From the NCBI RefSeq assembly GCF_009914755.1, contig NC_060927.1: a stretch of DNA of 64,000 bases; one strand, written 5' to 3'. A program made the position numbers and the translations under genes. Of this stretch, positions 5,011-36,463 are shown piece after piece; within the stretch, counting starts at the first letter, position 1; every line of letters begins with the position of its first letter. Source of the DNA: the human T2T-CHM13v2.0 reference genome, Homo sapiens. Below the pieces are notes generated by a model, which had not been told where the DNA came from, did no database searches, and saw only the letters and a list, made by a program, of their open reading frames with translations.

Positions 5011-7338
5011 ATCAATAAACATAATCCAACATATAAACAGAACCAAAGACAAAAACCACAAGGTTATCTCAATAGATGCAGAAAAGGCCTTCGACAAAAT
5101 TCAACAGCCCTTCATGCTAAAACCTCTCAATAAATTAGGTATTGATGGGACATATCTCAAAATAATAAGAGCTATTTATGACAAACCCACAGCCAATATC
5201 ATACTGAATGGGCAAAAACTGGAAGCATACCCTTTGAAAACTGGCACAAGACAGGGATGCCCTCTCTCACCACTCCTATTCAACATAGTGTTGGAAGTTC
5301 TGGCCAGGGCAATCAGGCAGGAGAAAGAAATAAAGGGTATTCAATTAGGAAAAGAGGAACACAAATTGTCCCTGTTTGCAGATGACATGATTGTATATTT
5401 AGAAAAACCCCATTGCCTCAGCCCAAAATCTCCTTAAGCTAATAAGCAACTTCAGCAAAGTCTCAGGATACAAAATCAATGTGCAAAAATCACAAGCATT
5501 CTTATACACCAATAACAGACAAACAGAGAGCCAAATCATGAGTGAAGTCCCATTCACAATTGCTTCAAAGAGAATAAAATACCTAGGAATCCAACTTACA
5601 AGGGATGTGAAGGGCCGCTTCAAGGAGAACTACAAACCACTGCTCAATGAAATAAAAGAGGATACAAACAAATGGAAGAACATTGCATGCTCATGGATAG
5701 GAAGAATCAATATCGTGAAAATGGCCATACTGCCCAAGGTAATTTATAGATTTAATGCCATCCCCATCAAGCTACCAATGACTTTCTTCACAGAATTGGA
5801 AAAAACTATTTTAAAGTTCATATGGAACCAAAAAAGAGCCCGCATTGCCAAGTCAATCCTAAGCCAAAAGAACAAAGCTGGAGGCATCACTCTACCTGAC
5901 TTCAAACTAAACTACAAGGCTACAGTAAACAAAACAGCATGGTACTTGTACCAAAACAGAGATATAGACCAATGGAACAGAACAGAGCCCTCAGAAATAA
6001 TACCACACATCTACAACCATCTGATCTTTGACAAACCTGACAAAAACAAGAAATGGGGAAAGGATTCCCTATTTAATAAATGGTGCTGGGAAAACTGGCT
6101 AGCCATATGTAGAAGCTGAAACTGGATCCCTTCCTTACACCTTATACAAAAATTAATTCAAGATGGATTGAAGACTGAAATGTTAGTCCTAAAACCATAA
6201 AAACCCAAGAAGAAAACCCAGGCAATACCATTCAGGACATAGGCATGGGCAAGGACTTCATGTCTAAAACACCAAAAGCAATGGCAACAAAAGACAAAAT
6301 TGACAAATGGGATCTAATTAAACTAAAGAGCTTCTGCACAGCAAAAGAAACTACCATCAGAGTGAACAGGCAACCTACAGAATGGGAGAAAAATTTTGCA
6401 ATCTACTCATCTGACAAAGGGCTAATATCAAGAATCTACAAAGAACTCAAACAAGTTTACAAGAAAAAAACAAACAACCCCACCAAAAAGTGGGTGAAGG
6501 ATATGAACAGACACTTTTCAAAAGAAGACATTTATGCAGCCAACAGATACATGAAAAAATGCTCATCATCACTGGCCATCAGAGAAATGCAAATCAAAAC
6601 CACAATGAGATACCATCTCACACCAGTTAGAATGGCGATCATTAAAAAGTCAGGAAACAACAGGTGCTGGAGAGGATGTGGAGAAATAGGAACACTTTTA
6701 CACTGTTGGTGGGACGGTAAACTAGTTCAACCATTGTGGAAGACAGTGTGGCAATTCCTCAAGGATCTAGAACTAGAAATCCCATTTGACCCAGCCATCC
6801 CATTACTGGGTATATACCCAAAGGATTATAAATCATGCTGCTATAAAGACACATGCACACATATGTTTACTGCGGCACTATTCACAATAGCAAAGACTTG
6901 GAACCAACCCAAATGTCCATCAATGATAGACTGGATTAAGAAAATGTGGCATATATACACCATGGAATACTATGCAGCCATAAAAAAGGATGAGTTCATG
7001 TCCTTTGCAGGGACTCGAATGAAGTTGGAAACCATCATTCTCAGCAAACTATCGCAGGGACAAAAAACCAAATACCGCATTTCTCACTCATAGGTGGGAA
7101 TTGAACAACGAGAACACTTGGACACAGGAAGAGGAACATCACACACCGGGGCCTGTCGTGGGGTTGAGGGGAGGAGGGAGGGATAGCATCAGGAGATATA
7201 CCTAATGTAAATGACGAATTAATGGGTGCAGCACACCAACATGGCACATGTATACATATGTAACAAACCGGCACGTTGTGCACATGTACCCTAGAACTTG
7301 AAGTATAATAAAATAATAATAATAATAAAATTAAAAAA
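5011..7338 (+). mobile_element. 5'-truncated L1PA (L1PA4/5-like), copy 1; disrupted ORF2 RT and C-terminal region, 3' UTR, A-tail
   Basis: ORFs 4982-5437, 5481-6119 and 6245-7093 are L1 ORF2p ([25 protein letters not shown]). Perfect 16-bp TSD AGAAAGGCTTTGCCCA at 4995-5010 and 7339-7354. Confidence 0.97.
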
Positions 7339-8150
7339 AGAAAGGCTTTGCCCACTTAATGTTTATAAAGGAACCCACTATGTTTTTTTCTTGTACTGCA
7401 TAGTTTTATTTTTTATACTTAAATATCTAATCTACTTGAAGTTTGTTCTATTATCTTGTTTAAGGCATTAATCCAATGTAATCTTTTTCAAATGTCTTCC
7501 CAATCAATTGTTCAATCATCAGGAAAACTGAGGAACAAAAGTCACCAGAAACCAACATCAAAGAAAAAAAAGCTATTCTTCAGTAGTTTAAGGAGGTGCA
7601 GACTTTCTCAAGACTGTGATAAAGGGAAGTAACACTGCTTAATTATCTGACCAGGTATGCAATGCCAAGTGCCAGACAATTTTATTGAGCTGAACTTGAA
7701 GAACATTTAAACCATGTAAACTACAGAGAGAATATGGAGAAAAACCACTGATTTCAGAGCAAGAACATGTATACTTTCTATGCTTGAGTTGATAAAGTTT
7801 CCCCTCATCCACAAATGCTACAAAACTAAAATCTTAGTCTTCTCTTATTTTTTTCTTTTCAAGTTCAAACCTTTATTAATGTTCTTAAGGTACTCTAATT
7901 TTTTAAAAAATTTACAAACAGTAAAATTCACTCTTTAGGGTATACAGTTTATAAGCTTCAAAAATGCATAGAATTATGTAACCATTTCCATAATCAAGAA
8001 ACAGAACAGTCTCATAATCTCCAAAAAATTCTCTCAAGCTACTCCTCCCCAAACCAGAATACCCAGAAAACCTGGCAACCATTGATCTGTTCTTCATCCC
8101 TACAGTTTTTCCTTTTCTAAACATTATATGTCATATAAATGGAATCCTAC

Positions 8151-35700: not shown

Positions 35701-36463
35701 CTGGCCATCAGAGAAATGCAAATCAAAACCACAATGAGATACCATCTCATACCAGTTAGAATGGTGATCATTAAAAAGTCAGGAAACAACAGGTGCTGGA
35801 GAGGATGTGGAGAAATAGGAATGCTTTTACACTGCTGGTGGGAGTGTAAACTAGTTCAATCATTGTGGAAGACAGTGTGGCAATTCCTCAAGGATCTAGA
35901 ACTAGAAATCCCATTTGACCCAGCCATCCCATTACTGAGTATATACCCAAAGGATTATAAATCATGCTGCTATAAAGACACATGCACACGTATGTTTATT
36001 GTGGCACTATTCACAATAGCAAAGACTTGGAACCAACCCAAATGTCCATCAATGATAGACTGGATTAAGAAAATGTGGCACATATGCACCATGGAATACT
36101 ATGCAGCCATAAAAAGGATGAGTTCATGTCCTTTGTAGGGACATGGATGAAGTTGGAAACCATCATTCTGAGCAAACTTTCACAAGGACAGAAAACCAAA
36201 CACCGCATGTTCTCATTCATAGGTGGGAATTGAACAATGAGAACACTTAGACACATGGCGGGGAACATCACACACCGGGGCCTGAGTGGGGTGGGGGGAT
36301 GGGGGAGGGATATCATTAGGAGATATACCTAATGCAAATGACGAGTTAATGGGTGCAGCACACCAACATGGAACATGCATACATATGTAACAAACCTGCA
36401 TGTTGTGCACATGTACCCTAGAACTCAAAGTATAATAAAAATAAATTTAAAAATAAAATAAAA
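32732..36463 (+). mobile_element. Composite L1PA, copy B: antisense segment 32732-33553, sense segment 33554 to 3' UTR and A-tail
   Basis: Minus ORF 32647-33648 (333 aa, RT with FADD) and plus ORFs 33682-36138; no flanking TSD found. Confidence 0.95.

What the first reader, a model, noticed from the sequence alone, without database searches (positions are those of the whole stretch)
5011..36463. Three neighbouring L1PA copies share inactivating mutations in incongruent patterns, suggesting a local gene-conversion network
Seen: copies 1 and A share a nonsense TGA in ORF2 (GACTGAAATG; 6176-6178 and 17755-17757) where B has TTA, plus GTGAAGGGCC and GTAAACAAAACAGCATGGTACTTG. Copies 1 and B share a 1-bp frameshift deletion (TGTAGAAGCTG at ~6108 and ~35241) where A is intact (TGTAGAAAGCTG). 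All three share AGTGAAGTCCC (G at 5547, 17125, 34680), GAAATCCCATTTG and ATCAAGAATCT, which differ from the L1PA consensus as I recall it. Copies 1 and A have different TSDs, so they are independent insertions. Established: L1 cis-preference makes inheritance of stops or frameshifts from an active parent unlikely. Inference: repeated non-allelic gene conversion over 10-30 kb.
Basis: partly seen in the sequence, partly recalled or inferred. Interest (0 to 1): 0.7.

Follow-up and report, generated by a model that had tools for sequence, protein, structure and literature searches.

The report
Neighbouring LINE-1 copies swap mutations
Three dead LINE-1 copies lying within 31 kb of each other share several otherwise very rare mutations in conflicting patterns, likely because DNA repair copied short patches between neighbours, and elsewhere in the human genome LINE-1 copies carrying the same rare mutation also sit near each other far more often than chance.

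Summary
All nine motifs lie where stated. The shared alleles are rare: the 1-bp deletion is in 8 copies genome-wide against 9,920 intact, 2 of the 8 in this window; the G at 5547 is in 54 of 9,241, 3 of them here. Unlinked carriers of that G do not carry the set, so it is no sublineage. Trees switch along the element: (1,A) in one stretch, (A,B) in the next. Non-allelic gene conversion between neighbours is the best explanation.

(1) Copy B's 5' side (32519-34241) is a mosaic of three inverted copies of local DNA 6-19 kb away, including copy A's twin-priming junction, which occurs exactly twice in the genome; B has no target-site duplication. (2) With this window removed, carriers of the same rare allele are about 17-fold enriched within 3-300 kb of each other (36 of 6,414 pairs against 5 of 14,907), also for a control allele absent from the window, fading by 3 Mb. 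Conversion between neighbouring repeats is known for Alu (about 10 kb); this L1 range was not found in nine literature searches of the open library.

The parts
5011..7338 (+). Copy 1: 5'-truncated L1PA (ORF2 3' part, 3' UTR, poly-A), the youngest-type of the three; carries 13 of 13 tracked shared alleles plus the 1-bp deletion
   Evidence: TSD 4995-5010 / 7339-7354
16003..16702 (-). Copy A, inverted 5' segment made by twin priming; donor of the junction copied into B
   Evidence: 13-bp TSD 15993-16005
16691..18910 (+). Copy A, forward segment to poly-A; older-type diagnostics except about 17470-18030, where it matches copy 1
   Evidence: TSD 18911-18923
17470..18030 (+). Inferred patchy conversion tract copy 1 -> A (partner 5890-6450), includes the shared TGA at 17755-17757
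   Evidence: non-CpG difference 1-A 18 of 587 against A-B 45 of 587; (1,A) SH-aLRT 96; six diagnostics in young state
16673..16705 (+). Twin-priming inversion junction of A; one of only two matches genome-wide
   Evidence: up to 2 mismatches: 2 hits, both in window
33553..36465 (+). Copy B, forward L1PA to poly-A; no TSD; carries the 1-bp deletion at ~35246 and the three-way alleles
32731..34241 (-). Inverted copy of A 16003-17511 running across A's inversion junction (95%); 33553-34100 differs from A at only 10 of 529 non-CpG sites; 32731-33553 is the extra segment B-inv
32677..32731 (-). 55-bp templated piece copied from 13890-13944 (53 of 55 identical)
32519..32677 (-). 160-bp templated piece copied from the old L1 at 26529-26688 (96%; next best genome-wide hit 91%)
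13890..13944 (+). Template of the 55-bp piece (unmasked DNA)
26529..26688 (+). Template of the 160-bp piece, inside an old minus-strand L1 (about 25000-30966)
32422..32521 (+). Alu cut after its first 100 bp at the mosaic's left junction
30967..38498 (+). Old host L1 into which B and the mosaic are set; about 2.5 kb of its middle is missing relative to the old L1 at 25000-30966
   Evidence: left piece ends opposite 29793, right piece starts opposite 26983, one Alu subtracted
5547..5547 (+). G shared by 1, A (17125) and B (34680) but not B-inv; 54 of 9,241 copies genome-wide
6108..6118 (+). 1-bp deletion shared by 1 and B (35241); 8 copies genome-wide against 9,920 intact
6176..6178 (+). In-frame TGA shared by 1 and A (17755-17757)
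6430..6781 (+). Three-way alleles 6430A, 6517T, 6781C (A 18009, 18092, 18355; B 35563, 35646, 35910)

Best explanation
Copies 1, A and B share rare alleles in conflicting patterns, and B's 5' side is an inverted copy of A's junction and two other local stretches; the likely cause is repeated break repair that used the nearest homologous L1 as template (non-allelic gene conversion) after the copies had inserted separately. Shown: separate TSDs for 1 and A; rarity of the alleles; switching trees; the unique junction present twice; enrichment of same-allele carriers within 300 kb elsewhere in the genome. Inferred: (a) mutations arose in one dead copy and were pasted into neighbours in tracts of tens to several hundred bases; (b) the longest tract ran from the younger copy 1 into A (about 17470-18030); the deletion and the TGA, 64 bases apart, need at least two separate exchanges; (c) in one event a free 3' end in B invaded A's inverted segment, copied through A's junction for about 820 bases beyond homology, switched to 13890-13944 and then 26529-26688, and was end-joined with 0-1 bp microhomology, losing B's 5' end, its TSD and about 2.5 kb of the host L1; whether this happened during B's insertion or later is open; (d) donor choice follows physical proximity, which would give the distance decay seen genome-wide.
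For: Rarity. No sublineage: 27 unlinked 5547G carriers hold at most 3 of the 13 tracked alleles (the selected one included) against 13, 12 and 6 in 1, A and B. Incongruence: 27 window-shared alleles, rare in 76 background copies, fall into patterns 1A, 1B, AB, 1AB, A+Binv, B+Binv, 1+A+Binv, A+B+Binv and all four; trees give (1,A) 96, (A,B) 88 and (B,Binv) 96 in different stretches; divergence flips between stretches. Polarity of the 1->A tract. Mosaic. Genome-wide: same-allele pairs at 3-300 kb 36 of 6,414 against cross-allele 5 of 14,907, P 0.0002; same site G-G 8 of 946, A-A 18 of 4,851, G-A 2 of 4,356; 30 links in 25 clusters against 1.2-6.4 expected. Nine of those 25 clusters examined: 89-98% identical, 0-7 further shared rare alleles, some between copies of different age.
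Against: No ape orthologues could be read, so no allele was seen to replace another in time. A runs test on 26 informative sites found no clustering into clean tracts (16 runs, 14.9 expected, P 0.78). With a mixed-age background the pair counts fall to 4, 3 and 5, and unlinked old copies reach up to 11 through shared subfamily diagnostics. Overall identity of 1, A and B to each other (94-95%) is no higher than to the best unlinked copies. Identical runs around the focal allele in near pairs (34-142 bases) are like those of far pairs (median 57). One of four trees is unresolved, support is SH-aLRT only, no AU test was run. Sixteen of 25 outside clusters were not read, and for the young ones (95-98%) flanks were not in the fetched stretch, so duplication is not excluded there. 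Beyond 300 kb the signal is weak once clusters are collapsed (P 0.059 and 0.010).
Confidence: 0.85

Rival explanations
1. A local source L1 (or one mobilised in trans) seeded daughters nearby, so neighbours share alleles by descent.
For: A and B group together in the 3' stretch (SH-aLRT 88) and share older-type diagnostics; clustered carriers are more often in the same orientation (27 direct, 9 inverted pairs).
Against: Copy 1 differs from A and B at age diagnostics; patterns are incompatible within 100 bases; outside pairs mostly share only the focal allele and include copies of different age (89-93% pairs); a parent with a stop and a frameshift would need trans-mobilisation (cis-preference: established knowledge, recalled).
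Confidence: 0.04
2. B as a whole is a DNA-level duplicate of A made in one template-switching event; conversion explains only the sharing with copy 1 and later patches.
For: B contains A's unique junction; A and B agree at all 16 diagnostics scored in the inverted segment and are sisters in the 3' stretch; A has a short inverted repeat at both ends of its inverted segment that could guide a switch.
Against: A-B identity drops sharply at about 34100 (10 of 529 against 10 of 137 differences), as expected of a copy tract inside an independent element; B ends in its own A-rich tail, with none of A's flank or TSD; A-B difference is 45 of 587 in 35000-35600.
Confidence: 0.07
3. Independent recurrent mutation or regional mutation bias.
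For: TGA in 2 of 29 and 6430A in 3 of 71 sampled copies show that some of these changes recur; one or two of the shared sites may be homoplasy.
Against: Deletion 8 against 9,920 with 2 in the window; at one site G clusters with G and A with A but not G with A, which a regional rate cannot give; cannot make the duplicated junction.
Confidence: 0.01
4. Assembly or polishing artefact moved alleles between paralogues.
For: Only one assembly was searched.
Against: Copies are 2-3 kb, 5-7% diverged, each with 31-69 private non-CpG changes; mosaic pieces have since diverged 2-5% from their templates; the window is from T2T-CHM13 by the hub's note.
Confidence: 0.02

Closest known systems
Non-allelic gene conversion among neighbouring Alu elements (Aleshin and Zhi 2010; not held, seen only as cited in PMC6598467 section 4 and PMC8230782 passages)
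   Same: Non-diagnostic mutations shared between neighbouring retroposon copies, falling with distance; mosaic and incongruent patterns.
   Different: Here L1PA, not Alu; enrichment runs to 300 kb (12-fold at 100-300 kb) and weakly to 3 Mb, against about 10 kb reported for Alu.
Ectopic gene conversion among human LTRs (Trombetta 2016, PMC4921805, passages read)
   Same: Short tracts (maximum 14-450 bp, mean 99), multiple donors, preference for linked donors.
   Different: That work used polymorphisms at Y-linked LTRs; here apparently old sharing among autosomal L1 copies with a genome-wide distance profile.
NAGC in human gene duplicates (Harpak 2017, 10.1101/135152, passages read) and Ty donor choice in yeast (Hoang 2010, PMC2996329, passages read)
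   Same: Tracts of about 250 bp, slowing with divergence; donor choice set by proximity rather than identity.
   Different: Substrate is dispersed truncated L1 at 93-95% identity, not segmental duplicates or yeast Ty.
L1 templated insertions and twin priming (Zumalave 2024, 10.1101/2024.08.27.596794, passages read)
   Same: Twin-primed 5' inversion with short internal duplication (copy A); genomic templates copied into an L1 5' junction by an SDSA-like switch (copy B).
   Different: Those templates are typically under 250 bp and within 15 bp of the site; here three templates lie 6-19 kb away, one is 1.5 kb and is another L1's inversion junction, and the event may postdate insertion.
Double-strand break in a LINE repaired by conversion with endogenous LINEs (Tremblay 2000; not held, seen as cited in PMC3055243 passages)
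   Same: Direct precedent for L1-to-L1 conversion repair.
   Different: Engineered break in mouse cells; this is a natural record in the human reference.

Membership tests
Non-allelic gene conversion between dispersed repeats | Copies are separate insertions, not duplicates | tested here: met
   Different TSDs for 1 and A, different 5' ends, no shared flanks; B has no TSD, so for B shown only indirectly
Non-allelic gene conversion between dispersed repeats | Shared derived alleles rare among unlinked copies | tested here: met
Non-allelic gene conversion between dispersed repeats | Phylogenetic incongruence along the element | tested here: met
Non-allelic gene conversion between dispersed repeats | Discrete contiguous tracts | tested here: inconclusive
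   One clear 1-A stretch and one A-inv/B stretch, but runs test P 0.78
Non-allelic gene conversion between dispersed repeats | Rate falls with distance | tested here: met
   16x, 30x, 12x, 3.4x, 2.8x, 0.9x, 0.9x over seven distance bins; weaker beyond 300 kb after collapsing clusters
Non-allelic gene conversion between dispersed repeats | Non-reciprocal replacement seen against an orthologous ancestral state | not testable with these tools
   No primate relatives held
Twin-primed L1 insertion (copy A) | 5' inversion, short duplication or deletion at the inversion point, poly-A, TSD | tested here: met
L1 templated insertion during TPRT (copy B) | Local genomic templates at the 5' junction | tested here: met
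L1 templated insertion during TPRT (copy B) | Templates under 250 bp within about 15 bp of the site (typical case in 10.1101/2024.08.27.596794) | tested here: not met
   Templates 6-19 kb away, one 1.5 kb long
L1 templated insertion during TPRT (copy B) | Copying simultaneous with insertion | tested here: inconclusive
   Template-copy difference 10 of 529, 8 of 212 and 42 of 800 in different pieces
Named L1PA subfamily (L1PA4-7) | Match to subfamily consensus diagnostics | not testable with these tools
No consensus library; only relative age (1 younger than A and B) from genomic copies.
Segmental or tandem duplication (outside clusters) | Homology extends into flanks and many private alleles shared | tested here: inconclusive
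   Not seen in the 9 of 25 clusters read, but flanks were reached in only some

The most novel reading that the evidence does not exclude
L1PA copies across the human genome form distance-limited conversion neighbourhoods reaching hundreds of kilobases, 10-30 times the range reported for Alu: about a quarter of carriers of a rare allele (55 of 207) sit within 300 kb of another carrier and about one in seven such alleles (30 of 207) was copied from a neighbour, not mutated in place. The decay curve would be an unread fossil record of germline homology-search range, and this locus catches both outcomes of the same process, patch conversion and long-range multi-template copying.
Probability: 0.45. 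Interest if true: 0.78.

Novelty: new variant of a known kind. Interest (0 to 1): 0.62.

Why it matters
If neighbouring L1 copies overwrite each other over 10-300 kb, L1 remnants are not independent mutation counters: ages, subfamily calls and mutation spectra taken from them (for example PMC5237266, 39,894 remnants; passages read) carry a copied component, and dead copies can pass stops and frameshifts to, or take patches from, neighbours. The allele-clustering test needs only one finished genome and can be run on every L1 site, giving a direct distance curve for germline donor choice to set beside chromatin contact maps. The locus itself is non-coding and no function is claimed.

Tried and rejected
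Sublineage of L1 carrying these alleles: rejected. Simple inversion between A and B to explain the shared junction: considered on paper, gives no simpler ancestor, and A keeps both TSDs. B as its own twin-priming product: rejected, the junction is letter-identical to A's and unique. My 'del' flag wrongly marked three unlinked copies; the printed strings show none has this deletion. Runs test and identical-run lengths gave no support. Shared-allele counts per pair lose power against a mixed-age background. The genome was not available as a file and earlier findings were closed, so all-site statistics were not possible. Aleshin and Zhi 2010, Tremblay 2000 and a recalled id for Gilbert 2005 were not held. 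PMC12350158 (passages) and PMC9675761 (passages) gave nothing on neighbour conversion or local L1 integration in the passages shown. No supplements were read; those of the bioRxiv papers (Harpak Fig. S9 on distance) may bear on the range claim.

Full report
Observation. The window holds three 5'-truncated L1PA-type copies on the + strand: copy 1 (5011-7338), copy A (forward 16691-18910 with an inverted 5' part 16003-16702) and copy B (33553-36465). No TSD was found for B. All three ORF2 remnants are broken in every frame (longest open stretch 246-289 aa).

Are the alleles rare? Rare derived alleles shared per pair were 8 (1-A), 6 (1-B) and 11 (A-B) against a mean of 0.68 and a maximum of 5 in 406 background pairs; with 56 background copies of mixed age, CpG sites and site 5547 left out, the counts were 4, 3 and 5, and unlinked old copies reached 11 through shared subfamily diagnostics, so this statistic alone is weak. 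Exact genome-wide counts are firmer: 5547G 54 of 9,241, three in the window; the deletion 8 against 9,920 intact, two in the window; 6781C 34, three in the window; 6430A 35, three in the window; the TGA 32-mer 18. Denominators were not measured for the last three. Twenty-seven unlinked 5547G carriers hold at most 3 of 13 tracked alleles, against 13, 12 and 6 in copies 1, A and B: there is no dispersed sublineage.

One tree? No. Against 76 background copies (29 + 27 + 20), 27 alleles shared inside the window fall into incompatible patterns. In B coordinates 35000-35600 copy 1 and A differ at 18 of 587 non-CpG sites and A and B at 45 of 587; in 35600-36300 A and B differ at 24 of 678 and 1 and A at 34 of 677. 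Trees with up to 26 background copies give (1,A) at SH-aLRT 96, (A,B) at 88, (B,B-inv) at 96 and one unresolved stretch. At age diagnostics defined from 29 younger and 8 older genomic copies, A agrees with B in the old state at eight sites outside 35000-35600 but with copy 1 in the young state at six sites inside it; this suggests copying from 1 into A (inference; three of the six sites are variable among intermediate copies). The deletion (1,B), TGA (1,A) and 6207A (1,B) alternate within 95 bases, which needs at least two exchanges. A runs test on 26 informative sites was not significant (P 0.78): the mosaic is fine-grained, not a few clean tracts.

32731-34241 is an inverted 95% copy of 16003-17511 that runs through A's inversion junction. 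That junction matches twice in the genome at up to 2 mismatches, both here. A is the donor by anatomy: its inversion point, short internal duplication and TSD are what twin priming leaves (10.1101/2024.08.27.596794, passages read). Left of it lie 55 bp copied from 13890-13944 (53 of 55) and 160 bp copied from an old L1 at 26529-26688 (96%, next genome-wide hit 91%), all three in inverted orientation, joined with 0-1 bp microhomology and ending in a cut Alu. About 2.5 kb of the old host L1 is missing (estimated against the neighbouring old L1). A-B identity is highest beside the junction (10 of 529 differences; unlinked minimum 3.2%, mean 5.4% in 42 copies) and drops at about 34100 (10 of 137). 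Inference: a 3' end in B invaded A's inverted segment, copied past the end of homology, switched template twice and was end-joined. Timing relative to B's insertion is open.

Is the locus special? The hit lists themselves were clustered, so I tested this with the window's copies removed, adding a control allele at site 5547 that is absent from the window (112 carriers, 100 listed). Of 237 listed outside carriers of six alleles, 207 were kept (dropped: contigs after C19:45.7 Mb where the control list ends, and the first 20 Mb of C13-C15). Same-allele pairs at 3-300 kb: 36 of 6,414; cross-allele pairs: 5 of 14,907; 16.7-fold, permutation P 0.0002; 3.4-fold at 0.3-1 Mb, 2.8-fold at 1-3 Mb, 0.9 beyond. 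At the same site G-G 8 of 946, A-A 18 of 4,851, G-A 2 of 4,356. Counting clusters instead of pairs: 25 clusters, 30 links, 55 of 207 carriers, against 1.2-6.4 links expected; control allele alone 15 against 1.6; after collapsing, P 0.059 at 0.3-1 Mb and 0.010 at 1-3 Mb. Nine of the 25 clusters were read: 89-98% identity, 0-7 further shared rare alleles, alignments ending at L1 ends where flank was fetched; a trio on C9 within 17 kb joins copies of different divergence and shares alleles in conflicting patterns like this window. Sixteen clusters were not read and flanks of the youngest were not reached, so some duplications may remain.

Mechanism and comparison. Best explanation (0.85): non-allelic gene conversion with proximity-driven donor choice. 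This is known for Alu within about 10 kb (PMC6598467 section 4 read; PMC8230782 passages; the primary paper was not held), for LTRs (PMC4921805 passages), for gene duplicates (10.1101/135152 passages) and yeast Ty (PMC2996329 passages); L1-to-L1 repair is cited in PMC3055243 (passages). Of ten literature searches, nine bore on repeat conversion and one on chimeric L1 insertion; the listings showed no paper describing neighbour conversion among L1PA copies with a distance profile. The library lacks most subscription papers, so this does not show absence from print. Verdict: real; a member of a known process, with an L1 range and a long-range templated junction that look like a new variant. Interest 0.62.

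Noticed in passing
window 19565-20262 (-): Full-length U6 (20138-20244, Rfam RF00026, 102 bits) fused to an L1 3' end (19577-20137) with a 16-of-17-bp TSD, inserted in an older L1: a U6-L1 chimeric retrocopy (known type, recalled). Its L1 part is about 90% identical to the three copies and lacks 6781C, an internal negative control.
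   Followed up: partly
window 30505-30965 against 31575-32031: Two old head-to-head L1s are 86.6% identical over 460 bp of ORF1 but 74-76% elsewhere; possibly an older local conversion or fold-back.
   Followed up: no
L087-L089 (G000:C9:117.90-117.92 Mb): Three L1 copies within 17 kb share the same ORF2 TGA and 7, 3 and 0 further rare alleles in conflicting pairs: a second network like this one.
   Followed up: partly
L081-L084 (G000:C4:114.64-114.76 Mb): Four same-strand young L1 copies share the control allele; two are identical over about 470 bp next to it; further carriers lie 0.47 and 0.64 Mb away.
   Followed up: partly
window 34699-34705, 34937, 34963 and the matching places in 32731-33553: B and B-inv, inverted repeats 0.7-2.3 kb apart, share rare alleles that A and copy 1 lack: exchange between inverted arms, or A overwritten later.
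   Followed up: partly
G000 pairs: Same-allele pairs under 300 kb are 27 direct to 9 inverted; not independent pairs, but a possible orientation bias.
   Followed up: no
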